Shown: positions 1,985 through 28,527, counted from the first letter of the stretch. The stretch is DNA of 56,898 bases from Poseidonia sp. (GCA_038136695.1 JAYQAK010000001.1:1-56898), one strand, 5' to 3'. Numbers and translations are program-made. Notes: a model not told the origin generated them from the letters alone.

Positions 1985-2144
1985 GTCTTCATCAACATCT
2001 GAGGCATTCTTTATGACCTGTCGTCATGGGTGAGGTGTCCCATGGAGGTCAAGGGAGTGTCCAATCTTAACCAACCCGCACGAAAGCCCGCCGCCTGTAC
2101 TCCAAACAGGCCACGAACACACACGCCTGTTGGAGGGTCGTTGC

Positions 2145-5159: not shown

Positions 5160-5169
5160 GGTGAACAGC

Positions 5170-5751: not shown

Positions 5752-5754
5752 ATC

Positions 5755-6486: not shown

Positions 6487-6490
6487 ACGC

Positions 6491-7732: not shown

Positions 7733-7752
7733 AGAACTTGTGCGCTCACGAA

Positions 7753-9447: not shown

Positions 9448-9550
9448 GTTCGCCCCACCTTGGGGCGATTTGCCACATTCAAAGGTTATAGGTCTTCGCA
9501 GTCCCATGAGGCCTTGCAGGGCGGTTCTTGCCCCTCTCACGATTTGCCGT

Positions 9551-10660: not shown

Positions 10661-10741
10661 CCATTCACCTCGGTGAGGGTCGCCCCCCACGGGTTAAGGG
10701 CGTGGACGACCGGTTAAGAAGCCCACCGTTGTGGGAGGGTT

Positions 10742-11725: not shown

Positions 11726-11728
11726 GGG

Positions 11729-12880: not shown

Positions 12881-12971
12881 TGAGGCCGACGACCAACCGG
12901 TTGGTTTCAAAAGCGTGCAATGAACCGTCTCGCATCGGTTGGTTCAAGTGATTTGACCGTGTCGTGTTCTC

Positions 12972-13463
12972 ATGCGAGGCACGCTTCGACGCAACGACGA
13001 GGCTGTGAGCCCCGTGATTGCCACCGTGCTTCTTTTGGCCATCACCGTGATGCTTTCCAGCATGGTGTTCGTGTTGATGCAGGGCGCCTTGACCACCGTT
13101 GAGAAATCTGCACCTCAGGCCACGGTGTCCGTCCGTGCGCTGGACAACGGTTTCCACGTGGTTCGCATCACCAGCCTTGACCAATCCATCGACCCTGCTC
13201 GCTTGGAATACACCGTGCAGCCGGCCAACCTAACGTCGTCGTTGCCAATTGCGGGGCATGTTTCCGATTCAAACGTCTACGGCGTTGTCGGGTCCAACGT
13301 ATCCTTCCACGACCGGGATTTGGGCTATTCGGTAACGCAAGGTGATTACTTCGTGATCGATTCGCAAACGATTGGGTCAACAGACGGTACCTGGAGCTTC
13401 AAGTTGGTCGAGGAATCCGTTGGCGTCTTGCTCATCGATGTGACGCTTCCGGCGATGCGTTGA
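12972..13463 (+). CDS. Archaeal type IV pilin-like protein (class III signal peptide)
   Basis: N-terminus MRGTLRRNDEAVSPVIATVLLLAITVMLSSMVFVL is a basic leader followed by the (V/I)SPVI... hydrophobic helix typical of archaeal pilin/archaellin-like N-terminal domains. Confidence 0.7.
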   Translation: MRGTLRRNDEAVSPVIATVLLLAITVMLSSMVFVLMQGALTTVEKSAPQATVSVRALDNGFHVVRITSLDQSIDPARLEYTVQPANLTSSLPIAGHVSDSNVYGVVGSNVSFHDRDLGYSVTQGDYFVIDSQTIGSTDGTWSFKLVEESVGVLLIDVTLPAMR

Positions 13464-13465
13464 CC

Positions 13466-14473
13466 TCATCCTCCGATGAACGACATCTCCACTTTGGAGG
13501 CGTCGGTGTTGTTCTCGCCACGTTCCACCGAATATTGGTCGGTTCGTTGGGACCAAATGCTGGTGATGGCTTGTTGAATATCGGCCAGTGAGGCTCCCAT
13601 TCGAAGCAACCCCCTGAGGTCGTGGCCGTTGGTGGCAAACAAACAGGTGTACATCGAACCGTTTGCTGAAAGCCTTGCTCGGGAACAATCACCGCAAAAG
13701 GGCTCCGTGACAGAGTTGATGAATCCAAAAACATCGCCGTTTAACGTGACATGCCGTCGGGCCACTTCGTGGATGTTTTGTCCAACTTCAGGCGAAAGTG
13801 CCCCGAAACGTTGCTCAAGTTTTGCTCGGACCTCACGGCCACTCACGACCTCGTCCAACTTCCAAGCATTGGTGTTGCCAACGTCCATGTATTCGACGAA
13901 CCGAAGCGGTACGCTTCGATGGCTGCACATCTCGGCCAACGCAAGGATTTGATCTTCGTTGACCCCTTTGCGAATCACAGCGTTGACTTTGACCCCCAAC
14001 CCTGCGAGGAGCGCTGCATCGATGGCTTCCACCACGTGTTGAGGCGTGAACTGGTCGGTATCGGCCATGGTGGCGAACACCTCGGGCTCGATTGCATCCA
14101 AACTCACGGTGACGCGGTCGAGTCCTGCTTCAACCAGCGAGGTTGCATGTTTTGCCAGCAACGCACCGTTGGTCGTCATGGCAAGGTCAACGTCTGGAGC
14201 CGCATGCCGGATCATCCCAATCAGTTTCACCAAATCGTTGCGCAGCAGCGGCTCACCGCCGGTCAACCGGACCTTTTCGAGTCCCACTGGTAGGAGCGAA
14301 CGAACCACGAGGACAATCTCTTCGTAACTGAGCAAGTCCTCTCTTGGAAGGAACGCATGGTCGGTTCCAAAATGTTCCCTCGGCATGCAATAGGAACACC
14401 GGAAGTTGCATCGGTCCGTAACCGAGATTCGAAGGTCTTTCAGTGGACGCATTCGGCGGTCCACGAGGGTCAT
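13466..14473 (-). CDS. moaA: GTP 3',8-cyclase MoaA (radical SAM, molybdopterin biosynthesis)
   Basis: Radical SAM motif LRISVTDRCNFRCSYCMP, C-terminal cluster FCGDCSRARL and terminal GG. Start set at the ATG for MTLVDRR (14473); the track ORF runs upstream to 14581. Confidence 0.85.
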   Translation of the reverse strand: MTLVDRRMRPLKDLRISVTDRCNFRCSYCMPREHFGTDHAFLPREDLLSYEEIVLVVRSLLPVGLEKVRLTGGEPLLRNDLVKLIGMIRHAAPDVDLAMTTNGALLAKHATSLVEAGLDRVTVSLDAIEPEVFATMADTDQFTPQHVVEAIDAALLAGLGVKVNAVIRKGVNEDQILALAEMCSHRSVPLRFVEYMDVGNTNAWKLDEVVSGREVRAKLEQRFGALSPEVGQNIHEVARRHVTLNGDVFGFINSVTEPFCGDCSRARLSANGSMYTCLFATNGHDLRGLLRMGASLADIQQAITSIWSQRTDQYSVERGENNTDASKVEMSFIGG

Positions 14474-14545
14474 GTTGGATGGACCACGCACGGGTTCTTG
14501 AACTTGTAAGCAAGGGTTGATGACACCCACGCACCACCTTGGCTC

Positions 14546-15964
14546 ATGGGGAAGGCTTGGGTCAAGCGCTGGTCGCCTCACCGCAACGGCGGCAAAGGGA
14601 GCCTTGTTCCGGTGCTTTCGATTCGCCGAAAGACCTCTATAGAACGAATAAATTGGAGCCTACCCCCATCGAAGAGTCATGCCATTCGATGGCTCACCCT
14701 CGCCGCCCAATCCCAGCAAGAGGTCGTGTTGCGAGGGATGGAACACGCCGGACAGGACGTGATTTCCATGCGTCGCTGTTTGGTCCAGATGGGCGTCAAC
14801 GTGAGCGATCTTGATCGAGATGGCCAACCACTGGCTTTGGCCAACAACGTTGACGAGCAACCCGCGAACGAAACGGCGGCATGGAAGGTCGCAGGCGTTG
14901 GCCCAAACGGTATGCACCCTCCAGTCAGCGTCCTTCATGCGGGGAACTCCGGTACGAGCCTGCGAATCCTCATGGCGTTGGTTTCACTGTACAATGTGCC
15001 GGTGATGGTGGACGGTGATGCGTCGCTTCGCTCACGGTCCTACGGTGCGATGCTCTCATCCTTCGAACAATTGGGCGTTGCTTGCTCGAAAGGAACGGAT
15101 GCAGAAGGCTTGCCGTGGCTCATTCAAGGGCCCATCAACGCAACTGCTCCTCTTCATCTCGACGTGGGTTCCTCGAGCCAACCCACAACTGCATGGTGTC
15201 TAGCTGCTCCCGGTTTCTCTTCAGCGTTGCAGGTGCACTTCGAAGGCGACCCTGTTTCCCGTCGCCACGCTGCGTTGACCATGGAGATGTGCGAAGCGAC
15301 CGGTTCAGACCCTCTTTCCAAAGGCGTCTTTCGTCCCTGGCAGCCGACCTTTTCCAGCGGCGAGGTGATTGTTCCACGGGATTGTTCAATGGTGAGCTTT
15401 GCCTTCCTCGCCGTCCAAGCCCTCCAATCGGAGGTGTTGGTTGAGGCGATGCCGCTGCCCGAGGACAGTCTGGGTCACGAGGTGTTGTTTGACATCGCGG
15501 CCTCGTTAGGGATCACCGTCTCCGATACGCTTCTCAAGCCATCTCGGACCTCCAAGAGCATTGACATCGATCTGCGAGATGCCAACGATTTGATCACGCC
15601 GCTTGCAGCCACCTTGGCGTTAGGGGCAGGAGGGCTCATTCACGGGGCACCGCATGCCGCCCACAAAGAAACCAACAGGCTCTCAGGGACGGTGAATCTT
15701 CTCAAACAGTTTGGTCTTGAATCCAGTCTTGAAGAAGACGGGTTGCGTGTGCCGGGAGGCCAACGCCTGGTGACGCCAATCGCTCCCGTCCAAACCTACA
15801 GCGACCACCGGATGCAAATGACGGCCCTGATCCTCGCTGCAGCCTGCGATGAAGAAGTTCTGGTGGAGGGGCCGAGCCTGCACACCGTGGCCGATCCTGA
15901 CGCCGTTGACCGGTTGAGGGCATGCGGTGTGGAGATTGAGGCTCTGCTGCATCAACCTTGGTGA
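14546..15964 (+). CDS. aroA: 3-phosphoshikimate 1-carboxyvinyltransferase (EPSP synthase)
   Basis: LPPSKSHAIRWLTLAA (PxSKS motif), HAGNSGTSLRILMAL and C-terminal ...YSDHRMQMTALILAA.... Start is ambiguous (ATG 14546 or in-frame GTG 14612). Confidence 0.8.
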   Translation: MGKAWVKRWSPHRNGGKGSLVPVLSIRRKTSIERINWSLPPSKSHAIRWLTLAAQSQQEVVLRGMEHAGQDVISMRRCLVQMGVNVSDLDRDGQPLALANNVDEQPANETAAWKVAGVGPNGMHPPVSVLHAGNSGTSLRILMALVSLYNVPVMVDGDASLRSRSYGAMLSSFEQLGVACSKGTDAEGLPWLIQGPINATAPLHLDVGSSSQPTTAWCLAAPGFSSALQVHFEGDPVSRRHAALTMEMCEATGSDPLSKGVFRPWQPTFSSGEVIVPRDCSMVSFAFLAVQALQSEVLVEAMPLPEDSLGHEVLFDIAASLGITVSDTLLKPSRTSKSIDIDLRDANDLITPLAATLALGAGGLIHGAPHAAHKETNRLSGTVNLLKQFGLESSLEEDGLRVPGGQRLVTPIAPVQTYSDHRMQMTALILAAACDEEVLVEGPSLHTVADPDAVDRLRACGVEIEALLHQPW

Positions 15965-15965
15965 A

Positions 15966-17990
15966 TCAACCGTGTCGGCCAAAATGATGGTCCAAACTGT
16001 CGATTGGAATCCTCAGTGAAGTGGGCCGTCCGTGGACACAGGCCCATGGATTGGGGATGCGTCGCATGTCGTCGAGCAGCCGCCTCATCTCGGGAAGCGA
16101 AAGCGATTCGTTGGCCTTGACTGCTCCTCGACAGGCGTTCATGAAGGCGATGTGGTCTTTTTTTGCCTCTATGGTTTCCAGCGGGCCACCGTCCTCTGCG
16201 AGGTCTTGAAGCAGGTCCAAAAAGAAGGGTTTCAGTTCTTCACCGCTCAACAATTGTGGTGCTGCAAGCAGGCTCCACTGCCCTTCTTCCCTTTGCAACG
16301 AAAAACCGAGAGCAGACAGGCGTTCATGGTGAGCATCGACCACCGCAGACTGTCGGGGATCCAACGCCAAGGCAAGCGGCGTCAAACGCTGCTGTGGCTC
16401 CCAGGCCTGACCGCTGTGGCGCAGCCGTTCGTAACGGACGCGTTCATGCAAGGCATGTTGGTCGATGAGCAGCAATTCATCCTCAGCCTGGACCAAGATG
16501 TAGGAGTCTGCAAATTGAGCAAGAGGTTCCATTAGGGGCAGGTCGTTGATGGCGCCACCAAGGGGCTCTTCTTGGGACGGCAGCGTGGTCGGTGCTGCTC
16601 CAGCATGCCGGTGAAGCGTACGCTCTGCGGTGGACAAGTGGGAGGCGACCGGGTTCTGGTCAAGGTTCGGGAGAACCGCTTGACCCAGCGGGGATGCTGA
16701 GACAGGACGTGGTTTGGATGGGGCTTCCGGTTGTTCTGCCTCGCTGCCCACCAGGTTCAGTTGACGTCCGGCTGCAACCGCCCAAGCAGGTGGCGCTGGC
16801 GTGGTTGGTGCAGGTGACTGTGGTGGAGCAACCGAGAGCCCTGCTGCACTGGTCAGCGCTCGTTCTTGTTGGTCGCTTGGCGAGGGGGCTTCTGGTGTTA
16901 AGTAAGTTTCAACAGACTTTACGCGATCAGCGGAAGCCAAGCCTTGCAATGCAGGTATGCCTCCGGTGGCATCCGGCTCGGTAGGGATGGATTCAAGGGT
17001 GTGGGAAATCGCTCGTTCCAGTCGCTCCAGGACGCGCCAAGAGTGTTTGAGTCGGACTTCTCGTTTTGTGGGGTGGACGTTCACGTCCACTTCACCTGGA
17101 GGGCAGGTGAGGTTGATGACCGCAAGCGGATGCCTTCCGTGCATCAAACGCGTTTTGTAACCACGACGAATCGCCTGCAAAAATGGACCGGGTGCAACCG
17201 GGCGGTGGTTGATCAGTATGTGGATGTCATCACCCTTTCCACGCGTGATATCGGGTGTGCTGATCCAGCCGTCCCATCGTTCCTCACCGGGTGCCTCCTC
17301 GTCGATTGGAGGGTGTTGAAGCGGGATAAGTTCCGTGGCCTGTGCGCCCATCAAGTCGTACAAGCGATCCATCATGTCGTCGGTTGGTGGGACATTGAGC
17401 AAGGTTCGTGTTTCGGATTTGAGATGGAATCCACATTGAGGATGGGCCAAGGCGTGGTCCACCACGACGTCCACGATACGAGCCGTTTCCGTCTCGGGTC
17501 GGCGTTGGAACGCCAATCGGGCGGGGGTGTTTTGGAACAAGTGTTCGACGGAGATACGAGTTCCATCGGGCATGCCGACGGGTTGAACATCCGATTTGAT
17601 GCCGTTTGCCATCGAGACGCGGGCCCCTTCTTCGCCCCTTGGCTGGCTTTCAATGGTCAAGGTTGAGACCATGCCGATGCTGGCCAACGCTTCACCACGA
17701 AAACCCAAGGACACGATGGCGTTCAGGTCGTCCTTCGTGGTGAGTTTTGAGGTCGCGTGACGGTCCAGCGCCAAGCTGAGGTCCTCCCTTGCAATGCCTC
17801 CGCCGTTGTCTTCAACGATCATCCGGTCAAACCCACCGTTCTCAATGATGACCGAAATGTTGGTGGCACCGGCATCCAGACTGTTTTCGACCAGTTCCTT
17901 GACGACTTGAGCAGGCCGCTCAACAACCTCTCCTGCGGCGATGTAGCCGATGGTGGCATCATCAAGTTGCTGGATTCGTTGCGGCTTCAC
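15966..17990 (-). CDS. mutL: DNA mismatch repair endonuclease MutL
   Basis: GHKL ATPase N-terminus IAAGEVVERPAQVVKELVENSLDAG and C-terminal endonuclease motif DQHALHERVRYE. The GTG start overlaps the mutS stop (GTGA). Confidence 0.9.
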   Translation of the reverse strand: MKPQRIQQLDDATIGYIAAGEVVERPAQVVKELVENSLDAGATNISVIIENGGFDRMIVEDNGGGIAREDLSLALDRHATSKLTTKDDLNAIVSLGFRGEALASIGMVSTLTIESQPRGEEGARVSMANGIKSDVQPVGMPDGTRISVEHLFQNTPARLAFQRRPETETARIVDVVVDHALAHPQCGFHLKSETRTLLNVPPTDDMMDRLYDLMGAQATELIPLQHPPIDEEAPGEERWDGWISTPDITRGKGDDIHILINHRPVAPGPFLQAIRRGYKTRLMHGRHPLAVINLTCPPGEVDVNVHPTKREVRLKHSWRVLERLERAISHTLESIPTEPDATGGIPALQGLASADRVKSVETYLTPEAPSPSDQQERALTSAAGLSVAPPQSPAPTTPAPPAWAVAAGRQLNLVGSEAEQPEAPSKPRPVSASPLGQAVLPNLDQNPVASHLSTAERTLHRHAGAAPTTLPSQEEPLGGAINDLPLMEPLAQFADSYILVQAEDELLLIDQHALHERVRYERLRHSGQAWEPQQRLTPLALALDPRQSAVVDAHHERLSALGFSLQREEGQWSLLAAPQLLSGEELKPFFLDLLQDLAEDGGPLETIEAKKDHIAFMNACRGAVKANESLSLPEMRRLLDDMRRIPNPWACVHGRPTSLRIPIDSLDHHFGRHG

Positions 17991-20629
17991 CGTTCCACCT
18001 CCAGCATGGCCTTGAGTTGGTACAGCACGTCGAGGGCCTGCCTGGGTGAGAGTTCGTCCACTTGCGTCTCCGAGAGATGGGTCATCAACTGCACGATGTG
18101 GGCGGGAATGACCTCTTGGGTCACCTGAGCCTGTGTCTGGAGCGCTGCAGCAGCGAAGTAACCCATCAAACTGGCCTGCCCTGCTTCTCGGGATTGTGGA
18201 GTGCCCTGTTCACCGGCTTTCGCGCCCCCAGCCTGTTGTTCCAGGAACGCGAGCAGGTCGGTAGCCCGTTCAACCACGTTTCGCGGCAGTCCAGCGAGAG
18301 CAGCAACCTGAACGCCGTATGAGTCATCGCAAGGCCCGTCAGCCACCTTGTGCAAGAAACGAAGTTGCCCTTCGGCATGGGCCACCTGAACGTGGACGTT
18401 GCACAATCCAGGTACATCGCCCTCCAGTCCGATCAACTGGTGGTAGTGGGTGGCAAAAAGCGTGCGAGAGCCAATGCGAGAACAGATGTCTTCGGTCACC
18501 GACCAAGCGATGGAAAGACCGTCAAACGTCGACGTCCCTCGACCGATTTCATCGAGAAGAACCAGCGAGTCCTTCGTAGCCCGCTTCAAAATATGTGCGA
18601 CCTCAATCATTTCCATCATGAAGGTGGACCGGCCTCGTTTCAGGTCATCGCTGGCTCCAACCCGGGTGAAGATGCGATCAACGAGGCCGATTTTGGCTGT
18701 TTTTGCAGGAACAAAACAACCTGCTTGTGCCAAAATGGTGGTCAAGGCTACGGTTCGGAGATAGGTGGATTTCCCGCCCATGTTTGGACCGGTGATCAGC
18801 AAAAACGACCGTTTCGGATTGATGAGGACATCGTTGGGAACGTAGCCTTGCTGTGTTTCAAGGACGGGGTGACGCGCATCGGTAAGTTGGAGCGCGGAGG
18901 TTGTTGACATGGCAGGTTTGGTCCATTGGCGTTCCCGGCTGACCGAGGCAAAGCACTGCAGAACATCGATGGCAGCCACTCGGCGTGCAATGTCGGCGAG
19001 GGTGGAGGCGTGCTGTGCGCAGTAGGTTCGAAGTTCCAAAAATCGCCTGTATTCCAATTCCTTCAATTTCGAATCCGCCGTCAACAACAGATCATCACGC
19101 TCGGACAATTCTGTGGTCACGTAACGCGACCCGTTGGTCAGTTGTTGCTTGCGTCGCCATGCTTCAGGGACTTTGTCGAGGTGTGTTTGCGTGACTTCGA
19201 TGAACCAACCAACTTGGCGGTTGTGCTTGACCTTCAACGAAGGGATGGACAACGAATCACGCAATTGCAGTTCAAGGTTCGAGAACCACGCTTTTCCTTC
19301 GGTCGTGATGGTGCGCAATTCGTCGACTTCGTCATCAACGCCGCCCTTGAGCAGGCCACCGTCCCTTAATCCGAGCGGCGGGGCTTCCTGAAGCGTCCCT
19401 TTGATCATGTGCGACATTTCTTGGAGGGCATCCAATTCCTGACTGAGCAGGATGAGCAGGGGGTCTTGACTGTCTTGGCACCACCGAAGAAGAGCAGGCA
19501 TGCGTTCGAGCGCGTGGGCGGTAGCGACCAAATCCCGTGCGTTGCTTCGCTGGTAGGCCAATTGCGTGGCGAGTCGTTCCATGTCCCTGATGCCTTTGAG
19601 CGATTCTCTCAACCCGTCAAGGCGGCGAGCTGATTTGGCCAGCGTCCCGACCGCTTTGTGCCTGGTTTCAATGGCCGAAACCTCTGCAAGCGGGTGGAGA
19701 ATCCATGTTTTGAGAAGTCGGCGGCCCATGGCTGTCCGGCATCGGTTCAGCGTTGAGAGCAAACTCCCGTCGTATTCTCCGGCCAAGGTGCTTGTTAACT
19801 CGAGATTTCTTAAGGTGGTTTGGTCCAACAGGAGGTGGCCGCTTTCTTCCACCACTTCCACGTCCTGAAGCGGGATTTCACTTCGCATGTGCACGGTGGC
19901 GACATAATCCGCTGCAAGGCCGGTCGCAGAAATCGCCAAGGGCGCGTGGTCCAAATCAAGGTGGCCCAAGTCGGCGACGTCCAACATGGTACGGAGGCGT
20001 TCCTCACGCTTGGCATGGGTGATGTTGTGCTGACTGATCATCGTTCCATGAAGGTGGAGGAACAACGGCCCCATCTGCTCATGTTCTGCATCCTTTGGCG
20101 ATAACACGAGTTCCTGAGGCTGCCACCGCTGCAGGTCATCTTGCAGTTTCGCAAAGCGATCTGGACCATCATGTGTGCTCGCCCATGCCTTTCCCGTGGA
20201 GGCATCGAGGACCGCAAGTCCAAGGCTGTCGCTGGAAAGCGCAACGGCGGCCAGCAACGATTGTTCATCACCTTCAAGCAAGCCTTCCTCGTACAGGCTC
20301 CCGGGGGTGTACACCCGCGTCACCACGCGTTCCAGCAGTTTCGCCCCCTCACGGAGTTCTTCCTCCTGCTCCGCCACGGTGACTTTGTAACCTGCCCTCA
20401 GCATCGTGCGCAGGTGTTCCTCCAGACCATGCCATGGGAACCCGGCCATCGGAATGGGCTTCTCCGCGTTTTTGTCCCTTGATGTGAGCGCAAGTCCCAG
20501 GACGTCGGCAGCCAGTTCTGCATCATCGTGGAACAATTCGTAGAAGTCCCCCATTCGGAAGAACAACACGGTGTCCGGATGTTGTTCTTTGATGTCAAAG
20601 AACTGGTCCATCATTCCGCGTTTGGTCAT
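17987..20629 (-). CDS. mutS: DNA mismatch repair protein MutS (bacterial MutS1 type)
   Basis: N-terminal mismatch-binding FFRMGDFYELF, Walker A ITGPNMGGKSTYLR, ...LVLLDEIGRGTSTFDG... and ...FATHYHQL.... Start at the ATG for MTKRGMMDQF; an alternative ATG lies 15 nt upstream at 20644. Confidence 0.9.
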   Translation of the reverse strand: MTKRGMMDQFFDIKEQHPDTVLFFRMGDFYELFHDDAELAADVLGLALTSRDKNAEKPIPMAGFPWHGLEEHLRTMLRAGYKVTVAEQEEELREGAKLLERVVTRVYTPGSLYEEGLLEGDEQSLLAAVALSSDSLGLAVLDASTGKAWASTHDGPDRFAKLQDDLQRWQPQELVLSPKDAEHEQMGPLFLHLHGTMISQHNITHAKREERLRTMLDVADLGHLDLDHAPLAISATGLAADYVATVHMRSEIPLQDVEVVEESGHLLLDQTTLRNLELTSTLAGEYDGSLLSTLNRCRTAMGRRLLKTWILHPLAEVSAIETRHKAVGTLAKSARRLDGLRESLKGIRDMERLATQLAYQRSNARDLVATAHALERMPALLRWCQDSQDPLLILLSQELDALQEMSHMIKGTLQEAPPLGLRDGGLLKGGVDDEVDELRTITTEGKAWFSNLELQLRDSLSIPSLKVKHNRQVGWFIEVTQTHLDKVPEAWRRKQQLTNGSRYVTTELSERDDLLLTADSKLKELEYRRFLELRTYCAQHASTLADIARRVAAIDVLQCFASVSRERQWTKPAMSTTSALQLTDARHPVLETQQGYVPNDVLINPKRSFLLITGPNMGGKSTYLRTVALTTILAQAGCFVPAKTAKIGLVDRIFTRVGASDDLKRGRSTFMMEMIEVAHILKRATKDSLVLLDEIGRGTSTFDGLSIAWSVTEDICSRIGSRTLFATHYHQLIGLEGDVPGLCNVHVQVAHAEGQLRFLHKVADGPCDDSYGVQVAALAGLPRNVVERATDLLAFLEQQAGGAKAGEQGTPQSREAGQASLMGYFAAAALQTQAQVTQEVIPAHIVQLMTHLSETQVDELSPRQALDVLYQLKAMLEVER

Positions 20630-20738
20630 GCATGTGCCCTCCATGGCTTACGCTGGAGTATGAGGAAGTTGACGAGGGCACATGAAGGTTCTCGCAACCA
20701 TCGATGTTTGCGCCGTGTTTCGTGGTTGTTCACCGAAT

Positions 20739-22714: not shown

Positions 22715-24493
22715 ATGCGTGTTGCCGTTCTGAAGGAAGACAATTGTCAACCGAAGAAGTGCAACGATGAATGCCATGACTTTTGTCCACCGGTTCGTAA
22801 CGGGCAAGAATGCATCGTTATGGACGAGCGTACCGGCAAACCTCACATTTCTGAAAGCCTCTGCATCGGTTGTGGAATTTGCATCAACAAATGCCCCCAC
22901 GATGCGTTGATCATTGAAAATCTACCAAGCGAACTGGAAACCGACATGATTCATCGCTACTCCATGAACGGCTTTCGCCTCTTTCGATTGCCCACGCCAT
23001 CAAAGGAAAGCGTCGTTGGTATCCTGGGGCCCAACGGCATGGGGAAATCGACCGCCATCAGTGCGCTTTCGGGTCGTATGATTCCAAACTTGGGTGATTG
23101 GCTCAACCAAGAACCGGTCTGGGATGAGGTCATCGATTCGCTTCCCAAAGGGGAACTTCGAGATTTTTTCATCGCCGTTCAGAAAGGGGACGTCAAGGTG
23201 GCGGTGAAGCCACAAAACGTGGACCGTTTGCCAAAACGCGTCCAAGGAACCGTTCTCGAGTTGCTCAGCCGGGTCGACGAACGATCCATCTTGAAGGAAA
23301 TGACGGAGGCCTTGGGCATCGATCATCTGCTTGAACGAAAAGTCCAGCAATTGTCAGGTGGCGAACTTCAACGCATGGCCATTTGTGCGACGATCCTCAG
23401 GGACGTTGACGTCTATTTCTTTGACGAACCTTCGTCCTACCTCGACATTCACGAACGCTTGCGTATTGTTCGCATCATTCAGGAACTCTCAGCTACGAAG
23501 CGTGTCATCGTCATCGAACACGACCTCGCTGTGCTCGATGTTTTGGCCGACCTTGTCCACATCGTATACGGAAAGAAAGGGGCGTTCGGCATCTTCACAC
23601 CCGCCCGTTCAACTCGACAAGCCATCAATTCCTACCTCGATGGGTTCCTGCCCGAAGAGAACGTTCGAATTCGGGACAAACCCATCAAGTTCCTTCGCCA
23701 CCAGGATCGGTCGGCTGAAATTGGCACCCCCGTGGTGAGTTGGGGCGAGTTGAGCAAGCAACTTGGCTCCTTTACTTTGAAGGCCAGCGAAGGGGCTGTT
23801 CATCGGTCCGAGGTTGTCGGTGTGGTGGGTGCGAACGGAACCGGAAAATCCACCATGATCAAGATCCTTGCTGGCGAACACGAGTACGATGAAGGCTGGG
23901 TCACGGCGGATGCGACGATCTCGTACAAACCACAACACATCGATGTTGATATCGATGGTTCGGTCCAACTCTGGCTCGACAGTGAACTTGGCCCAAGATG
24001 GCGCAGCGGTGAGTTCAACGTGAACGTCATCAAAGCCTTGGGCATCGACCAATTGCTTCCCAAACGCGTGAAGAAGTTGTCCGGCGGTGAACGTCAGGCG
24101 GTCTCCATCGCCTTGTGTCTGGGCAGAGATGCCGATTTGTACCTGCTTGACGAACCTTCGGCTCATTTGGACGCCAATGCTCGAATGGAGGCGGCAAAAG
24201 CCATTCGTCGCACGATGGAAGCGAACGAGAAATCGGCCTTTGTCATCGACCATGACGTCTATTTCATCGATATCGTTTCGGATTCTTTGCTGGTGTTTGA
24301 AGGTGAAGGCGGTGTCCACGGCCATGCAACTGGACCGTTCAACCTGCGCAAGGGAATGAACCAGTTTTTGGCTGGTGTCGACGTGACGTTCCGCCGAGAT
24401 CATGATTCACGGCGTCCCCGTATCAACAAAGGAGAAAGCCGAAAAGACCGAGAACAACGCAGCAGTGGTGACTATTATTCCTATGACGCTTGA
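22715..24493 (+). CDS. abcE1: ABCE1 / RNase L inhibitor (ribosome recycling ATPase)
   Basis: N-terminal Fe-S domain (CQPKKCNDECHDFCP... CIGCGICINKCP), two ABC cassettes (GPNGMGKST, GANGTGKST) and signature LSGGE twice. Confidence 0.95.
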   Translation: MRVAVLKEDNCQPKKCNDECHDFCPPVRNGQECIVMDERTGKPHISESLCIGCGICINKCPHDALIIENLPSELETDMIHRYSMNGFRLFRLPTPSKESVVGILGPNGMGKSTAISALSGRMIPNLGDWLNQEPVWDEVIDSLPKGELRDFFIAVQKGDVKVAVKPQNVDRLPKRVQGTVLELLSRVDERSILKEMTEALGIDHLLERKVQQLSGGELQRMAICATILRDVDVYFFDEPSSYLDIHERLRIVRIIQELSATKRVIVIEHDLAVLDVLADLVHIVYGKKGAFGIFTPARSTRQAINSYLDGFLPEENVRIRDKPIKFLRHQDRSAEIGTPVVSWGELSKQLGSFTLKASEGAVHRSEVVGVVGANGTGKSTMIKILAGEHEYDEGWVTADATISYKPQHIDVDIDGSVQLWLDSELGPRWRSGEFNVNVIKALGIDQLLPKRVKKLSGGERQAVSIALCLGRDADLYLLDEPSAHLDANARMEAAKAIRRTMEANEKSAFVIDHDVYFIDIVSDSLLVFEGEGGVHGHATGPFNLRKGMNQFLAGVDVTFRRDHDSRRPRINKGESRKDREQRSSGDYYSYDA

Positions 24494-24529
24494 CATCGAC
24501 CCGAAGAAGAGGGAACTGGAGGCTCGTCA

Positions 24530-26278
24530 ATGCCTGTAGGCTTGCCCCCTCGAGGTGGTCCGATGGGGCGCTCACGAGGGCGTCTATCAGCCAGTGCCCT
24601 GACGACCTTTTTCCGCTGTCCACGCCAATGGTTGTTGAACTATCAAGGCGGTATGCAGGGGCCAACACGCCCGTCGCAAATTCTCGGCATCGTCCTTGAA
24701 GAGGCGTTCTGTGAACTGCTCATGCACCATCCTCCCGGGGACATTGAAAGCATTGAGGAGCTTCGGACATGGGCCTTAGAACCCTTGACGCAACTGGCGG
24801 AAAAAGCGAGGTTGGATGGTAAGAACATGTGGCAGAACAGCCTGTGGAAGGTGGAAGATGGCGCGTGGGAAACACTCGGTATCGACGTGTTTGTTCAGCG
24901 CCTTGAGGGCGGACTGGACCTGTATTTGAGTGAAGTCCAAGCCTGTTTTGATGCTGGAGGTGGGCCATGGTTGGATGCGCTTCGAAACGGCGACGAGCCG
25001 TTTGATGTTCCGGCGCCGACCTGGTCGGCCACACCCGTGTTCCCGCTTCCCGAAAAGGTCCCGGATGTTGAGTTGCGACGTTGGCCACTGCACGCACCGC
25101 CGGAATGGCGGCCTGCCGGGGAACCTCTTCGATGGAACGAGGCTTGGGAATGCGCTCGTCCGTGGTTCAAAGACCCACGAGTGCATCAACCACAGCGTCT
25201 TTATCATCCAGACGGATGGGCTTCTGGAGAACTTGATCTGGTCCTCCGTTGGGACGGTGCAGTTCGCGTGGTTGACATCAAATCCGGGACCTCCGATTCG
25301 GTGTTCGCCTCATCCCTTGAACACCAGCTTCGCTTCTACGCGTGGCTTTGGTGGGCGACCCACGACCAAGCCACCGCTGCGGGCATGGAGGGATGGTATC
25401 TTCAGAATGCTCAGCGGGTGGCGTATGACGTGCCCACGCGAGAAGAACTTGAACACCTTACGAACACCTACGGAGAGGTTCATCATCAAATGCAAACCAT
25501 GGCAGAAGGTGTCTTGGTCTTCCCCGAAGGACCGGAAGATGCGTGCGATGGTTCAGCTGCAGGATGCAACTGGTGTTCGGTTTCGCGCGATGAAAACGGC
25601 GCTTGGACCGCACCGGATTATCTTCAATGGGTCACTTCTATCTCGCAAGTAAGCACACGCTCACCTTACCAAACACTTCAATCCATTCAGGGGCGAGTCG
25701 CGGTGAAAGGACGCCTCACGGGCGTGTGGGGTCCGATGCCAAACCACTTCGGGGAACCGGTCTTGGGTGCCGTGTTGGTTGTTGGGTCCCAACACATCAC
25801 GGTCGAGGAAAGCGAACCCGGTGCGTTCCATCAATTGCACGAGTACAACGAACGAGAGATCGTTCTGGTGGATGCACTCCCCGGTGTTTGGCGTGACCAG
25901 CCAAGGTTGTATCTTGATGCTCGTTCCTCAGTCTTTCTTTCAAATGAGGAGGAGAAGATTCCAGAGGACACGGTCTTCACCCGTCTCGGGTTGTTGAGAA
26001 CGAGGGCCAATGTCATCGGTCACGTGTTGTCCATTGGCCAACGGTCTGGCGTCCGAGTGGACGGCAAACCTTGGAGCATGCTTTCCTTGATGTTGTGGGA
26101 CGGTCATGCCGTTGCCGAGGTCGTGGCCTTTGGTTCAAGCATCAATCAACGGCTTCTCGAATTGAGACCAGGGTCACCTCTTGCGATGACCGGGGTTGAA
26201 ATCGGCTGGCGGTCTGGTGTGTTGCAACTGCGCATCGACAACCGAAAAACTCGGCTTGAAGAGTCGCTTCGACGGTGA
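24530..26278 (+). CDS. Cas4/RecB-like 4-Cys PD-(D/E)XK nuclease fused to C-terminal OB-fold-like domains (paralogue A)
   Basis: C30 in FFRCPRQW; acidic VLEEAF; GELDLVLRWDGAVRVVDIKSG (D...D-x-K); QLRFY (QxxxY); C339-x6-C346-x2-C349. The C-terminal ~200 aa is beta-rich with RPA-like OB signatures (RANVIGHVLSIGQRSGVRVDGKPWSMLSLMLWDGHAVAEVVAFGSS...). Confidence 0.65.
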   Translation: MPVGLPPRGGPMGRSRGRLSASALTTFFRCPRQWLLNYQGGMQGPTRPSQILGIVLEEAFCELLMHHPPGDIESIEELRTWALEPLTQLAEKARLDGKNMWQNSLWKVEDGAWETLGIDVFVQRLEGGLDLYLSEVQACFDAGGGPWLDALRNGDEPFDVPAPTWSATPVFPLPEKVPDVELRRWPLHAPPEWRPAGEPLRWNEAWECARPWFKDPRVHQPQRLYHPDGWASGELDLVLRWDGAVRVVDIKSGTSDSVFASSLEHQLRFYAWLWWATHDQATAAGMEGWYLQNAQRVAYDVPTREELEHLTNTYGEVHHQMQTMAEGVLVFPEGPEDACDGSAAGCNWCSVSRDENGAWTAPDYLQWVTSISQVSTRSPYQTLQSIQGRVAVKGRLTGVWGPMPNHFGEPVLGAVLVVGSQHITVEESEPGAFHQLHEYNEREIVLVDALPGVWRDQPRLYLDARSSVFLSNEEEKIPEDTVFTRLGLLRTRANVIGHVLSIGQRSGVRVDGKPWSMLSLMLWDGHAVAEVVAFGSSINQRLLELRPGSPLAMTGVEIGWRSGVLQLRIDNRKTRLEESLRR

Positions 26279-26329
26279 CCATCCCTTCCTTTGTGAGCCT
26301 TGAAAAGGGGTGAATTGTGTCCAACCCAC

Positions 26330-28183
26330 ATGCCCGTTCGAGCAGCAGACCCAGCCGCCGATAACGTGGGTCAGTACAACCGCCTTTCTGCCAGTCAAGC
26401 CAATCAATTCCGAGCCTGCCCACGCCGATGGTTCTACGAGAAGGTCTACCGATTCAAGATGGAGCAAATTCCGGTGCTCTATGTTGGTCGTGCGGTTGAA
26501 GAAGCGTTGTGCAGGGTGTTGATGGATTCTCCAAGTCTGGTGATGGCCAATGCACCGGCCGATGTCTTGGGCCCGAGCCCCTATTCCGAAGACGGTGTTC
26601 CCGAGGATCCAAACGATCGGACATGGCCTGCCCAACGTTTGCTGCCCCTCCAGCCGCATGAGCGTCCACAGACCATTGACGATCTCGAACAGTGGGTCCT
26701 CGGTCGCTGCAGAGTCCATTTTCCCGGAGCGATGAGCAGGGCGAAAGCGGAGTGGGAAAAAGACGAACGGCGTTCGGGGAGTTGGGACGAAGTGGACGAG
26801 GATGTTTGCTTTGAGATGCTTGCAAACGGGGCCATGTTCCACATCAACGAAGTCGAACGTTGCTTTGAGGACAACGGGGGGCAGAATGCGGAAGCATGGC
26901 GACGCGGCCAGCGAGGTACCTGGCCTGCACCGGATGGCTTTCCTCACGTTGATTTTGCAGACGGACATCCCTTTGCGGAGGAGGGGGACGTCACGTGTGC
27001 TGAGGCATGGGAACTCGCACGACCGTGGTTTGTTGACCCTGATGCTCCAAAATTTACCATGAACGCTGTTCATCCTGACCATTGGTTCCAAGGCGAATAC
27101 GATTTGGTCTATCGCTGGACTGGGCGACCTCGAATCGTTGACATCAAAGCGAGTGTAGGTGCTGGGGATCGTTCAGGCGATTACGTTGACCAAATGCGTG
27201 CGTATGCTATGTTATGGTACGTAACGCATCAGCGGCAAGAAGAAGTCGCAGAGTTGGAGATTTGGTACCTCGGTCATCCAAGTGTCAAATCCATTCCGGT
27301 ACCGAGCAAAGACGAGATCGCTCAAATTGAAGAGGAGATGGAAGCGATGTGGAAACGGTTGCGTGAAAGCACGCCAAGCATCGTTGATTGCCCTCCCGAA
27401 CCGCTTCCTATGCGAGGTTACCATCCCGGCGGACAGCCAACCGATCCCCCCCAAACGGTTCGGTGTGAGCGTTGTGACTGGCGAGCGGTGTGTCCGGGAG
27501 GGGATGCCTCTGGTGAACCTACGGTTCCTTCGATGTATCAACTCCCGGGCGCCAGTCAACGAACACCGCTTCAGTCCCTCGGTTCGTTGAATCCACGAAT
27601 CACGACCAGAGGCACGCTGTTTGATGTGGGATATGAATCAGAAAAACGTGCTCGAACGATGACCCTCAAGCAAGGCACGAACACAGCCTTTGTCCAGGTG
27701 GTAGCGACCGAGCACAGCGATGGTGGACCCACCGTTGATGTTGAGCTCGTTCGAGGCAAGGCGGTCTTGGTCGTCGATGCAGTGTTTACCGTCAACTGGA
27801 AGGGCGAGATTGTCCTCAAGATGGACCCGTTTACACGGTTGGTCGAAGACACCGACCCGAGCATTGAATCCAGTGATTTGTTTGACGTGCAAGCGAAACA
27901 CAACGTGGCAGGAATCGTGGTCTACACCTATGAAAAAAGCGGTGTTGGAAAGGGAGGCCACCGATGGTCACGTCGAGGCATGATGGTCATGGACGGCACA
28001 GGTGCGATGAAAATCGAAGGGTGGGCGGACGATTGGAACCCGCAATATGAGATGGTGGAAGCGGGCGATACCGTGGTTGTAGCGAACCTTGGCCTCGATG
28101 CTTGGGCAAAGGAGGTGAAGGGTGAGTACACCCGAAATTCACGGTTGCACATTGCCGAGCGGGTTGACCGCTCATCCACCTGA
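26330..28183 (+). CDS. Cas4/RecB-like 4-Cys PD-(D/E)XK nuclease fused to C-terminal OB-fold-like domains (paralogue B)
   Basis: Collinear with paralogue A: FRACPRRW; AVEEAL; GEYDLVYRWTGRPRIVDIKAS; QMRAY; CERCDWRAVC (C-x2-C-x5-C). The C-terminus has OB-like segments (HNVAGIVVYTYEKSG...RRGMMVMDGTGAMKIEGWAD...GDTVVVANLGLD). ATG at 26330; the track start at 26300 is a TTG. Confidence 0.65.
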   Translation: MPVRAADPAADNVGQYNRLSASQANQFRACPRRWFYEKVYRFKMEQIPVLYVGRAVEEALCRVLMDSPSLVMANAPADVLGPSPYSEDGVPEDPNDRTWPAQRLLPLQPHERPQTIDDLEQWVLGRCRVHFPGAMSRAKAEWEKDERRSGSWDEVDEDVCFEMLANGAMFHINEVERCFEDNGGQNAEAWRRGQRGTWPAPDGFPHVDFADGHPFAEEGDVTCAEAWELARPWFVDPDAPKFTMNAVHPDHWFQGEYDLVYRWTGRPRIVDIKASVGAGDRSGDYVDQMRAYAMLWYVTHQRQEEVAELEIWYLGHPSVKSIPVPSKDEIAQIEEEMEAMWKRLRESTPSIVDCPPEPLPMRGYHPGGQPTDPPQTVRCERCDWRAVCPGGDASGEPTVPSMYQLPGASQRTPLQSLGSLNPRITTRGTLFDVGYESEKRARTMTLKQGTNTAFVQVVATEHSDGGPTVDVELVRGKAVLVVDAVFTVNWKGEIVLKMDPFTRLVEDTDPSIESSDLFDVQAKHNVAGIVVYTYEKSGVGKGGHRWSRRGMMVMDGTGAMKIEGWADDWNPQYEMVEAGDTVVVANLGLDAWAKEVKGEYTRNSRLHIAERVDRSST

Positions 28184-28372
28184 AGAAATCGTGGTGACTC
28201 GCAGCGTCACGCTCTGGTTCAACGATGTTGAATGTGGCAAAACGGTCCCCTCATGGCTAACGATGACCATGGACGGCAGAAGGCCTGCTTTGAGGAGAGC
28301 TTCGCGAACCGTTGAGCCGGGGGACATCTCAGCCGTGTGCTCGTGCTCCCCGTCAGAAAACCGTACTTCCAT
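28172..28372 (-). CDS. Ubiquitin-like beta-grasp protein of the ThiS/MoaD/SAMP family (66 aa, C-terminal GG)
   Basis: MEVRFSDGEHEHTAEMSPGSTVREALLKAGLLPSMVIVSHEGTVLPHSTSLNQSVTLRVTTISSGG*. Length, pattern and di-glycine end fit the family. The track ORF's 5' extension would run through the tRNA gene. Confidence 0.65.
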   Translation of the reverse strand: MEVRFSDGEHEHTAEMSPGSTVREALLKAGLLPSMVIVSHEGTVLPHSTSLNQSVTLRVTTISSGG

Positions 28373-28427
28373 GGCACATCCATGAAACATCATGCTTATG
28401 ACCGTCGCGCAGAAGCGCCATGGCAGA

Positions 28428-28510
28428 GCCGAGGTCGCATAGCCCGGTATTGCGGTGGATTCGAAATCCACTGTCCCTTGGACGCGGGGGTTCAAATCCC
28501 TCTCTCGGCG
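28428..28510 (+). tRNA. tRNA-Ser: tRNA-Ser (anticodon CGA), class II with a long variable arm
   Basis: Hand-folded. Acceptor GCCGAGG/TCTCGGC plus discriminator G; 3-bp D stem GCA/TGC with GG in the loop; anticodon stem GTGGA/TCCAC with loop TTCGAAA (CGA); variable stem GTCC/GGAC; T arm GGGGG-TTCAAAT-CCCTC. No encoded CCA and no intron. Confidence 0.85.
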
Positions 28511-28527
28511 CTCTCAGACCCGTTGTA

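What the first reader, a model, noticed from the sequence alone, without database searches (positions are those of the whole stretch)
24530..28183. Tandem paralogous Fe-S PD-(D/E)XK nuclease / OB-fold fusion genes with no helicase or cas partner
Two same-strand genes encode collinear paralogues of 582 aa and about 617 aa. Gene A starts 36 nt after ABCE1, and 21-51 nt separate A from B depending on the start chosen for B. Read directly, each protein has the following elements in order.
- An N-terminal Cys in the context F.(R/A)CPR(Q/R)W.
- An acidic (L/V)EEA motif.
- A shared ARPWF(K/V)DP segment.
- GE(L/Y)DLV(L/Y)RW.G..R(V/I)VDIK, which gives the PD...(D/E)xK arrangement.
- Q(L/M)R(F/A)Y, a QxxxY motif.
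- A C-terminal Cys triad: C-x6-C-x2-C in A and C-x2-C-x5-C in B.
This is the 1+3 cysteine layout of the Fe-S cluster nucleases (Cas4, AddB, Dna2, Exo5; PDDEXK_1-type). Each nuclease core is followed by about 200 aa of beta-rich sequence with two stretches that resemble RPA-type OB folds. I do not recognise a nuclease fused to two OB folds as a characterised family. The duplication suggests an obligate heterodimer, such as an ATP-independent ssDNA-end processing or flap nuclease, or alternatively a defence-type nuclease. No CRISPR/cas genes, helicase or ATPase are adjacent. The window also carries RPA, MutSL and a third short paralogue of this nuclease.
Basis: partly seen in the sequence, partly recalled or inferred. 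Interest (0 to 1): 0.8.

Follow-up and report, generated by a model that had tools for sequence, protein, structure and literature searches.

The report
Paired Fe-S nuclease–RPA-like OB fusion genes
Two neighbouring genes of a marine group II archaeon (Poseidoniales) each encode a Cas4/AddB-type iron-sulfur DNA nuclease fused to two RPA-like single-strand-DNA-binding domains; this pairing is conserved across the order and no member has been studied, so it is probably a new motor-less DNA-end or flap processing enzyme.

Summary
Gene A (24530-26278, 582 aa) and gene B (26330-28183, 617 aa) are collinear paralogues (24% identity, E 5e-42). Both exceed the Pfam PDDEXK_1 threshold. The RecB-type catalytic residues and a 1+3 cysteine set are conserved in nearly every relative. 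An AlphaFold model of A shows two C-terminal OB folds whose best PDB matches are RPA70 DBD-A/B. The nuclease half of B best matches ACE1, Dna2, Cas4 and AddB.

The family appears restricted to Poseidoniia archaea. Every named relative comes from that class, and none was found on viral contigs. It splits cleanly into an A clade and a B clade.

- A is followed by B in 78 of 80 species-representative loci and in three divergent genomes. Two related species lack B at this locus.
- ABCE1 adjacency is common but broken in one lineage, so it is synteny, not a functional link.
- No cas genes, CRISPR array, helicase or defence context is present.

Best reading: a housekeeping ssDNA-directed nuclease with built-in RPA-like modules, probably an A-B heteromer. 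The pathway is unknown. No characterised protein with this architecture turned up in Pfam, NCBIfam, PADLOC, the PDB or the papers searched. It is a new variant of a known kind, of moderate interest.

The parts
24530..26278 (+). Gene A: 582-aa Fe-S PD-(D/E)XK nuclease fused to tandem OB folds (A clade)
   Evidence: ORF. Pfam PDDEXK_1 66.1 bits. AF2 model pLDDT 85.9, pTM 0.85. Orthologues at 50-93% identity in 80 Poseidoniales loci.
24578..25645 (+). A nuclease domain (about residues 17-372), including a family-specific helical insert (about 75-152) and the EAWECARPWFKDP motif
   Evidence: Secondary structure of the AF2 model. PDDEXK_1 match over residues 232-352. Invariant columns.
24617..24619 (+). 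A Cys30, the N-terminal ligand of the predicted [4Fe-4S] cluster
   Evidence: Invariant in alignments A1 and A3. Conserved in full-length representatives of both clades: among those with a residue at this column, only P0257 differs (Gly); three others are gapped there.
25235..25339 (+). A catalytic core: GELD236, VD249-I-K251, Q266-x3-Y270 (RecB motifs II, III and QxxxY)
   Evidence: Identical in all 37 sequences tabulated (the window's A and B plus 35 full-length representatives of both clades); coordinates.
25544..25576 (+). A C-terminal Cys triad C339-x6-C346-x2-C349, a variant spacing of the canonical C-x2-C-x5-C
   Evidence: Invariant in the A alignment. Divergent A-clade members carry the canonical C-x2-C-x5-C.
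25682..25945 (+). A OB fold 1 (about residues 385-472)
   Evidence: Five-strand barrel with a helix at 436-439 in the AF2 model. Foldseek hits to tandem-OB proteins: RPA70 DBD-A/B, Teb1, HIN-200, POT1.
25991..26263 (+). A OB fold 2 (about residues 488-578), strongly basic (pI 9.9-11.7 in all 31 sequences of the A alignment)
   Evidence: AF2 and Foldseek. A+B profile hit to Pyrococcus abyssi RPA 8aa9_A, E 2.5e-4. Charge analysis.
26279..26329 (+). A-B spacer, 51 nt, with no T-run and a GGGGTGA purine stretch upstream of the B start
   Evidence: Sequence. Comparable short spacing in the related loci.
26330..28183 (+). Gene B: 617-aa paralogue (B clade) with the same architecture
   Evidence: ORF. 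All homologues start MPV. Pfam PDDEXK_1 59.8 bits. BLASTP against A, E 5e-42.
26378..27505 (+). B nuclease domain (about residues 17-392) with C30, E57, D258, D271-x-K273, Q288-x3-Y292 and C379-x2-C382-x5-C388
   Evidence: AF2 model of residues 1-412: pLDDT 79, pTM 0.82. Foldseek best hits are ACE1, Dna2, Cas4, AddB, SSO0001, AdnAB, MGME1, RecB and Exo5. Invariant columns.
27581..28165 (+). B tandem OB region (OB1 about residues 418-508, OB2 about 520-612); OB2 is near neutral (median pI 7.0)
   Evidence: Collinear homology to the modelled OB region of A, E 1e-6. The B-only profile's top PDB hit is P. abyssi RPA, E 0.11. A faint precomputed PF01336 hit on B orthologues. Charge analysis. B's OB region was not modelled directly.
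24494..24529 (+). ABCE1-A spacer, 36 nt, with GGAGG 9 nt upstream of the A start and no T-run
   Evidence: Sequence. Consistent with read-through from ABCE1, but not tested.

Best explanation
A and B are two anciently duplicated subunits of a nuclease specific to Poseidoniia archaea. It has no helicase motor and acts on single-stranded DNA.

**Proposed mechanism**
- Each subunit has a RecB/Cas4/AddB-type PD-(D/E)XK active site (E57, D236, D249-x-K251, Q266-x3-Y270 in A).
- The active site is braced by a [4Fe-4S] cluster that ties the N-terminal helix (C30) to a C-terminal Cys triad.
- Two RPA70 DBD-A/B-like OB folds follow the nuclease. They would hold the ssDNA substrate, or hand it over from RPA.
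- The enzyme probably threads a free ssDNA end or flap into the nuclease, as Dna2, Exo5, Cas4 and AddB do. It would cut during housekeeping DNA repair, recombination or replication.
- A and B most likely work together as a heteromer with two active sites and four OB folds. The very basic OB2 of A would be the main DNA clamp.

**Shown:** domain identities, conservation of catalytic and Cys residues, the tandem OB fold in A, the restricted taxonomic range, and the A-B linkage.

**Inferred:** metal-cluster binding, DNA rather than RNA as substrate, polarity of cutting, heteromer formation, and the pathway.
For: **Nuclease domain**
- Pfam PDDEXK_1: E 6e-18 for A and 5e-16 for B.
- Foldseek on the nuclease half of B returns only Fe-S or RecB-class DNA nucleases at the top: ACE1, Dna2, Cas4, AddB, AdnAB, MGME1, RecB, Exo5.
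- E57, G233, E234, D236, D249, K251, Q266 and Y270 are identical in all 37 sequences tabulated (the window's A and B plus 35 full-length representatives of both clades). The Cys set is kept in all but one.

**OB module**
- AF2 model of A: pLDDT 85.9.
- Top PDB hits are RPA70 DBD-A/B bound to ssDNA (4gop_C 1e-9; 1jmc_A), Teb1, POT1 and P. abyssi RPA.
- A sequence profile hits P. abyssi RPA at E 2.5e-4.

**Housekeeping, not mobile**
- 484 confirmed stretches in GTDB species genomes. The best 80 are all Poseidoniales contigs by content; one (L080) is filed under a bacterial MAG name.
- The neighbourhood is fixed, GC content equals that of the flanks, and there are no relatives on viral contigs.

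**Working together**
- B follows A at a short distance in 78 of 80 loci and in L081, L082 and L084.
- The A-B distance matrices correlate best of all gene pairs: r 0.96 raw and 0.89 after removing the signal of the translation genes.
- The OB2 charge asymmetry is conserved.
Against: - There is no biochemical evidence, and no complex prediction could be run.
- Two related species (L040, L041) cleanly lack B at the locus, so A may act alone.
- The mirror-tree signal is only modestly above the controls (0.66-0.81).
- Foldseek E-values for the nuclease domain are weak (about 1e-3) with TM 0.3-0.55.
- Pfam OB models do not hit the C-terminal halves.
- B's OB region was not modelled.
- The neighbours are mostly translation genes, which leaves an RNA substrate possible.
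- Whether Poseidoniales lack HerA-NurA or Dna2 was not determined.
Confidence: 0.55

Rival explanations
1. A and B are separate enzymes, each a monomer or homo-oligomer, with diverged substrates. An example would be one acting on 5' ends and the other on 3' ends, or on different structures. They would be kept adjacent only by inheritance of the tandem duplication.
For: - Both keep full catalytic and Cys sets, so neither is a degenerate partner.
- L040 and L041 keep A without B at the locus.
- Synteny in this order is generally very stable, even for unrelated genes such as PurF, PAC2 and eIF2a.
Against: - The A-B pair stays together where other linkages break: in L084, ABCE1 has moved away.
- A and B show the highest pairwise co-variation of distances.
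- The OB2 charge asymmetry is conserved, as expected for complementary subunits.
Confidence: 0.25
2. The pair is an RNA nuclease tied to translation or ribosome rescue. It would be co-transcribed with ABCE1 and use the OB folds as RNA-binding modules.
For: - The neighbours are translation genes: L10e, ABCE1, tRNA-Ser, eIF2-alpha, Nop10, S27e and L44e.
- The ABCE1-A spacer is 36 nt with no T-run.
- The ABCE1-A-B order is kept in all 80 best loci and in L081 and L082.
Against: - ABCE1 is not adjacent in L084, while A-B stays together.
- The conserved block also holds unrelated genes such as PurF and PAC2, so adjacency is weak evidence.
- All close structural and profile relatives of the nuclease are DNA enzymes with the same Fe-S layout.
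- The OB folds match the ssDNA-binding DBDs of RPA, Teb1 and POT1 best.
Confidence: 0.1
3. The pair is an anti-virus defence nuclease or a solo-Cas4 serving CRISPR-like adaptation.
For: - Weak PADLOC hits to DruK (E 3e-8 for A) and to Cas4 models.
- JGI labels some B orthologues as Cas4.
- The top Foldseek hit is the Argonaute-associated ACE1.
Against: - The Cas4 equivalog model scores 18 and 27 bits against a cut-off of 65.
- There are no cas genes and no repeat array in 57 kb.
- The position is invariant, in a housekeeping block, across species representatives.
- None is on viral contigs.
- GC content equals that of the flanks.
Confidence: 0.05
4. The pair is the excision nuclease of the bacterial-type MutS-MutL mismatch repair system encoded 4 kb upstream.
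For: MutL (15966..17990) and MutS (17987..20644) lie close by, and this proximity is kept in the Poseidoniaceae loci. The excision step of MutSL in archaea is unassigned (my own knowledge).
Against: - MutSL are on the opposite strand, separated from the pair by three genes.
- In L081, L082 and L084 the upstream genes are different (SQS_PSY, PurF), yet A-B persists.
- The representative-protein search found no full-length relative outside Poseidoniia, so other archaea with MutSL (per my own knowledge) are not expected to carry A/B; their genomes were not examined.
Confidence: 0.05

Closest known systems
Cas4 / solo-Cas4 and ACE1 (small Fe-S PD-(D/E)XK nucleases; Pfam PF12705/PF01930)
   Same: - Same nuclease fold.
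- Same RecB motifs.
- Same 1+3 Cys [4Fe-4S] layout.
- Best Foldseek matches: 9iab, 9iac, 8d3q_J, 4ic1.
   Different: - About 200 aa of extra helical insert.
- Two C-terminal OB folds.
- No cas1/cas2, CRISPR or Argonaute neighbours.
- Below the Cas4 equivalog cut-off.
- Encoded as a conserved paralogue pair.
Dna2 (eukaryotic and archaeal nuclease-helicase)
   Same: - An Fe-S PD-(D/E)XK nuclease that works on RPA-coated ssDNA flaps and ends.
- Contains an OB fold (my own knowledge of structure 5EAN).
- Among the top Foldseek hits: 5ean_A, 1.7e-3.
   Different: - No SF1B helicase domain.
- The OB folds are C-terminal, tandem and RPA70-like rather than a single N-terminal OB.
- Two paralogous chains.
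AddAB / AdnAB heterodimeric helicase-nucleases
   Same: - Two paralogous subunits encoded in tandem.
- Each has a RecB-type nuclease domain (AddB with C-x2-C-x5-C), each thought to cut one strand.
- Foldseek hits 3u44_B and 6ppu_A.
   Different: - No helicase or translocase domains at all.
- OB modules stand where the motors would be.
- Found in archaea only.
RPA70 DBD-A/B and archaeal RPA (P. abyssi RPA; Teb1 and POT1 tandem OBs)
   Same: - Tandem OB arrangement.
- Best structural matches.
- Profile-level sequence similarity of OB2 to P. abyssi RPA.
   Different: - Fused to a nuclease.
- No zinc-ribbon OB (DBD-C), and no trimerisation core detected.
- No BLASTP similarity to the window's own RPA-like protein.
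Viral two-component recombinases and nuclease-SSB pairs (baculovirus alkaline nuclease with LEF-3; herpesvirus UL12 with ICP8)
   Same: A PD-(D/E)XK exonuclease working with an ssDNA-binding partner (my own knowledge). LEF-3 models are among the best viral fold matches to the OB module.
   Different: In those systems the nuclease and the SSB are separate proteins and are viral. Here they are fused, cellular and duplicated.

Membership tests
PD-(D/E)XK nuclease superfamily, PDDEXK_1 / RecB-Cas4-AddB class (PF12705) | Profile score above the curated gathering threshold | tested here: met
   A scores 66.1 bits and B 59.8 bits against a cut-off of 22.
PD-(D/E)XK nuclease superfamily, PDDEXK_1 / RecB-Cas4-AddB class (PF12705) | RecB motifs: G-x-x-D, (D/E)-x-K, Q-x3-Y | tested here: met
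   GELD236, D249-I-K251 and Q266..Y270 in A. GEYD258, D271-I-K273 and Q288..Y292 in B. Identical in all 37 sequences tabulated (the window's A and B plus 35 full-length representatives).
PD-(D/E)XK nuclease superfamily, PDDEXK_1 / RecB-Cas4-AddB class (PF12705) | Fold similarity to solved members | tested here: met
   The Foldseek top 30 for B residues 1-412 are, apart from one DinG entry (9kqh_A), all ACE1, Dna2, Cas4, AddB, AdnAB, MGME1 or RecB, with probability 0.9-1.0. E-values are only about 1e-3 and TM 0.3-0.55.
Fe-S cluster subgroup (Cas4, AddB, Dna2, Exo5) | One N-terminal and three C-terminal Cys positioned to ligate a [4Fe-4S] cluster | tested here: met
   A has C30 plus C339, C346 and C349. 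B has C30 plus C379, C382 and C388. They are conserved in both clades; only one representative (P0257) lacks them.
Fe-S cluster subgroup (Cas4, AddB, Dna2, Exo5) | Actual binding of a [4Fe-4S] cluster | not testable with these tools
   This needs UV-vis or EPR on purified protein.
CRISPR-associated Cas4 (TIGR00372 equivalog) | Score above the equivalog cut-off | tested here: not met
   18.3 and 27.2 bits against a cut-off of 65.
CRISPR-associated Cas4 (TIGR00372 equivalog) | Adjacency to cas1/cas2 or a CRISPR array | tested here: not met
   No cas domains were found among the about 45 window ORFs scanned. No repeat array. None in the related loci.
RPA-type tandem OB module (DBD-A/B-like) | Two consecutive five-stranded OB barrels | tested here: met
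   For A: AF2 strands in 390-470 and 492-577, with local pLDDT mostly 85-94; 98 PDB matches at E<=1e-3, and the 50 listed are all tandem-OB proteins led by RPA70. For B: by homology only, E 1e-6.
RPA-type tandem OB module (DBD-A/B-like) | Sequence-level membership in RPA/OB Pfam families | tested here: inconclusive
   No Pfam hit for either C-terminal half at E<=10. The A+B profile hits P. abyssi RPA at E 2.5e-4. Faint PF01336 hits on B orthologues.
RPA-type tandem OB module (DBD-A/B-like) | ssDNA binding | not testable with these tools
   Only indirect evidence: many invariant Trp and Arg residues, and the basic OB2 of A.
Dna2 | SF1B helicase domain C-terminal to the nuclease | tested here: not met
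   No helicase or P-loop domain in Pfam or NCBIfam. The C-terminus is OB folds.
AddAB / AdnAB | UvrD-like motor domains in both subunits | tested here: not met
   None detected. Only the logic of a tandem pair of paralogous nucleases is shared.
Known anti-phage defence systems (PADLOC-DB) | Significant match to a system-specific protein model, together with partner genes | tested here: not met
   Only partial hits of the nuclease core to DruK and Cas4 models, with no partner genes.

The most novel reading that the evidence does not exclude
The A-B pair is a self-contained, ATP-independent DNA-end or flap resection machine. It would be the first nuclease with a built-in RPA-like four-OB ssDNA platform. 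In the abundant marine Poseidoniia it would take over the job done elsewhere by Dna2 or HerA-NurA. Alternatively, it could be a ribosome-rescue-coupled nuclease co-expressed with ABCE1.
Probability: 0.2. Interest if true: 0.75.

Novelty: new variant of a known kind. Interest (0 to 1): 0.55.

Why it matters
- Poseidoniales (marine group II) are among the most abundant archaea in the surface ocean (my own knowledge). They are uncultured, and their DNA-repair toolkit is known only from annotation.
- This conserved gene pair is filed everywhere as 'hypothetical' or as a generic 'PD-(D/E)XK nuclease'.
- The work here shows it is a distinct architecture: an Fe-S RecB/Cas4-type nuclease covalently joined to an RPA-like tandem OB module, duplicated into two clades that almost always travel together.
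- If it is a heteromeric, motor-less ssDNA processing enzyme, it adds a new design to the Dna2, AddAB and Cas4 family. It also gives a concrete candidate for end or flap processing in this lineage.
- It offers a compact model for how Fe-S nucleases are coupled to ssDNA-binding proteins.

Tried and rejected
- **Single-sequence PDB searches.** phmmer of A and B against PDB sequences gave only chance hits, to Reg3 and glutathione transferase. Profiles were needed.
- **Foldseek with full-length A.** The tandem-OB hits swamped the output and hid the nuclease matches. A truncated model of the B nuclease half solved this.
- **Third paralogue.** An HMM built from A+B found no third copy among the window ORFs.
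- **Origin of the OB module.** BLASTP of the OB halves against the window's own RPA-like protein found nothing. An origin from the resident RPA could not be shown.
- **Viral contigs.** The scan found no relatives.
- **Literature.** Searches on MGII, Poseidoniales, Cas4-like, OB-fold, NurA/HerA and Dna2 found nothing on this family or on end-resection genes in Poseidoniales.
- **Short distant hit.** A 445-aa protein (P0314) found by the profile sits in a bacterial context and matches only the nuclease core, so it is outside the family.
- **C61/C139 as a second metal site.** Rejected. C61 is not conserved outside the close relatives.
- **Read-through fusion of A and B.** They are in the same frame, but two in-frame TGA codons separate them.
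- **Complex prediction.** An A+B complex could not be modelled. The tool handles single chains only, and the combined length exceeds 1200 residues.

Full report
**What is in the sequence**

The window comes from a Poseidonia species (marine group II, Poseidoniaceae). A MAG contig of that genus carries the same genes at 91-98% protein identity.

- Gene A is 24530..26278 (+, 582 aa).
- Gene B is 26330..28183 (+, 617 aa). All homologues start with MPV, so the ATG at 26330 is the start and not the upstream TTG.
- ABCE1 ends 36 nt before A, and 51 nt separate A from B.
- The two proteins align from end to end (24% identity, E 5e-42). Their last 205 residues alone still align (E 1e-6).
- GC content is the same as in the flanks.

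**Nuclease half**

- Both proteins exceed the Pfam PDDEXK_1 threshold, with 66.1 and 59.8 bits against a cut-off of 22.
- Both fall well below the Cas4 equivalog cut-off, with 18 and 27 bits against 65.
- An AlphaFold model of B residues 1-412 has pLDDT 79 and pTM 0.82.
- Its best PDB matches are all RecB-class DNA nucleases, most of them Fe-S enzymes. They are ACE1, Dna2, Cas4, AddB, SSO0001, AdnAB, MGME1, RecB and Exo5.
- The Foldseek probabilities are near 1, but the E-values are modest (about 1e-3). This is a divergent branch.
- I aligned 35 full-length cluster representatives drawn from 1.84 billion proteins with the window's A and B. E57, G233, E234, D236, D249, K251, Q266 and Y270 (A numbering) are identical in every one of the 37 sequences. 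R210 and W212 of the family-specific EAWE.ARPW motif are identical too.
- The N-terminal Cys and the C-x2-C pair are kept in all but one representative.
- B and the divergent A members have the canonical C-x2-C-x5-C. The window's A subclade has moved one ligand, giving C-x6-C-x2-C.
- Both paralogues therefore look catalytically competent and able to bind a cluster. Actual cluster binding is an inference.

**OB half**

- The model of full-length A has pLDDT 85.9 and pTM 0.85. It shows two five-stranded barrels at about residues 390-470 and 492-577.
- Foldseek against the PDB gives 98 matches at E<=1e-3. The 50 listed are all tandem-OB proteins:
  - RPA70 DBD-A/B (4gop_C 1e-9; 1jmc_A)
  - Teb1 AB
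  - HIN-200 domains
  - POT1
  - Pyrococcus abyssi RPA
- A sequence profile of A+B hits P. abyssi RPA over OB2 (E 2.5e-4). The A-only and B-only profiles each find the same protein among their top hits at sub-significant E-values.
- Pfam OB models do not detect the region.
- B's OB region was not modelled. It rests on homology to A.
- OB2 of A is strongly basic in all 31 sequences of the A alignment (pI 9.9-11.7). OB2 of B is near neutral, with a median pI of 7.0. This is a conserved asymmetry between the paralogues.

**Distribution and linkage**

- The profile search of 1.84 billion representatives finds only 537 proteins at E<=1e-3 and 75 at E<=1e-30. Most of them are fragments.
- Every full-length representative classifies cleanly as A-type or B-type.
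- All members that carry a source name are Poseidoniales or Poseidoniia.
- A short 445-aa hit lies in a bacterial context and shares only the nuclease core.
- In the GTDB species genomes, 484 stretches encode relatives. The best 80 are all Poseidoniales contigs by gene content. One, L080, is filed under a Salipiger (bacterial) MAG name.
- In those 80 loci the gene order is MutS(-), a 429-aa protein(-), L10e(+), ABCE1(+), A(+), B(+), PAC2(-), eIF2-alpha(-), wherever the DNA extends far enough.
- B follows A in 78 of the 80 loci. In L040 and L041, two related species, the stop codon of A is followed directly by the downstream SAMP and tRNA-Ser genes. That is a clean absence of B.
- Three more divergent genomes keep A-B-tRNA-Ser-SAMP (L081, L082, L084).
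- In L081 and L082 the genes upstream of ABCE1 differ from those in the window. In L084, ABCE1 itself is no longer adjacent, and PurF sits upstream of A.
- A-B is therefore the conserved unit. The ABCE1 and MutSL proximities are regional synteny.
- No relatives exist on IMG/VR viral contigs.
- PADLOC gives only partial matches of the nuclease core.
- The window has no CRISPR-like repeat array.
- Pairwise distance matrices of A and B correlate better than any other gene pair in the block. The values are r 0.96 raw and 0.89 after regressing out the translation genes, against 0.66-0.81 for the controls. This is mild support for co-evolution.

**Interpretation**

The best-supported reading is a housekeeping ssDNA-directed Fe-S nuclease that carries its own RPA-like ssDNA-binding module. 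It was duplicated before the known Poseidoniia lineages diverged, and the two copies probably act as an A-B heteromer.

By analogy with Dna2, Exo5, Cas4 and AddB, a free ssDNA end or flap would be threaded into the active site. That mechanism is established knowledge for those families and was not tested here. The OB folds would capture or measure the strand. They would stand in for the helicase or RPA partner that related enzymes rely on.

The rivals are ranked in the report sections:
- independent enzymes
- an RNA or ribosome-rescue nuclease linked to ABCE1
- a defence nuclease or Cas4
- a mismatch-repair excision nuclease

The pathway remains unknown. I could not establish whether Poseidoniales lack HerA-NurA or Dna2.

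**Novelty**

Pfam, NCBIfam, PADLOC and the PDB hold no family or structure with this architecture. The papers searched describe none either. These include the Cas4 phylogenomics survey, which reports helicase and Cas1 fusions but no OB fusion.

Databases label the proteins 'hypothetical', 'PD-(D/E)XK nuclease family protein' or, loosely, 'Cas4'. I rate this a new variant of a known kind, of moderate interest.

Noticed in passing
window 28172..28372 (-): A 66-aa ORF ends in SSGG and looks like a ubiquitin-like small archaeal modifier (SAMP/ThiS type). It converges on gene B and overlaps its last 12 nt. Homologues sit beside B in L081, L082 (weak PF21965 SAMP2) and L084. The window copy has no Pfam hit.
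   Followed up: partly
window 28172..28511; L081 11872..12211; L082 11689..12065; L084 12028..12370: The tRNA-Ser(CGA) plus SAMP cassette downstream of B is inverted in the window (SAMP on -, tRNA on +) relative to the three divergent Poseidoniia loci (tRNA on -, SAMP on +).
   Followed up: partly
L040 6060..6420; L041 7750..8034: Two related Poseidoniales species representatives (SAG AG-333-I22 and ERR599165_bin.117) have gene A followed directly by SAMP and tRNA-Ser. Gene B is cleanly absent from the locus. Whether B lies elsewhere in those genomes is unknown.
   Followed up: partly
L084 (GCA_029936055.1) 6369..17917: In this lineage ABCE1 is not next to A. PurF lies upstream, divergently oriented, and ABCE1 is about 8 kb downstream on the other strand. 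A K+ channel gene is inserted between SAMP and PAC2.
   Followed up: no
window 22715..24493 and the ABCE1 genes of L001-L080: ABCE1 identities to the window fall into bands (67-68%, 73-79%, 81-98%). These bands do not track the neighbouring genes. ABCE1 distance matrices correlate at only r 0.26-0.38 with all neighbours, whereas the other pairs give 0.77-0.96. This could reflect in-situ replacement, recombination or a variable segment.
   Followed up: no
window 55439..56368 (-): A 309-aa Cas4-like ORF scores 21.9 bits on PDDEXK_1 (cut-off 22). It keeps an N-terminal Cys (NACPRSW) and C-x2-C-x5-C, but has no recognisable (D/E)xK or QxxxY motif. It may be an inactive Fe-S Cas4-like protein. It shows no BLASTP similarity to B's nuclease half (A not compared).
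   Followed up: partly
window 15966..20644 (-): Bacterial-type MutL (674 aa) and MutS (885 aa) genes overlap by 4 nt in an archaeal genome. Their proximity to the A-B block is conserved in the Poseidoniaceae loci but not in L081, L082 or L084.
   Followed up: partly
window 47062..48702 (+), repeats at 48201..48621: A zinc-ribbon protein has a C-terminal coding tandem repeat (units of 24, 51 and 75 nt, a Gly/Pro/Lys-rich unit (approx. GGPPGPKK, not verified)). A 922-aa SF2 helicase (ResIII/DEAD) with no relative in the PDB follows immediately at 48717..51485.
   Followed up: no
window 2130..3830 (+): A 566-aa OB-fold protein is probably the RPA. It gives only weak matches (REPA_OB_2 E 0.013; Thermoplasma Ta0387 2k75_A E 3e-5). 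It shows no BLASTP similarity to the OB modules of A or B.
   Followed up: partly
L080 (CAXQWT010000056.1): A contig filed under a Salipiger bermudensis (alphaproteobacterium) MAG carries the complete Poseidoniales block L10e-ABCE1-A-B-PAC2-eIF2a. This is probably a binning error in the public record.
   Followed up: no
window 5134..7732 and 12972..13463: Genes of the archaeal type IV pilus or archaellum type are present: two T2SSF-like genes, one T2SSE ATPase, and a separate archaeal pilin with the N-terminal domain.
   Followed up: no
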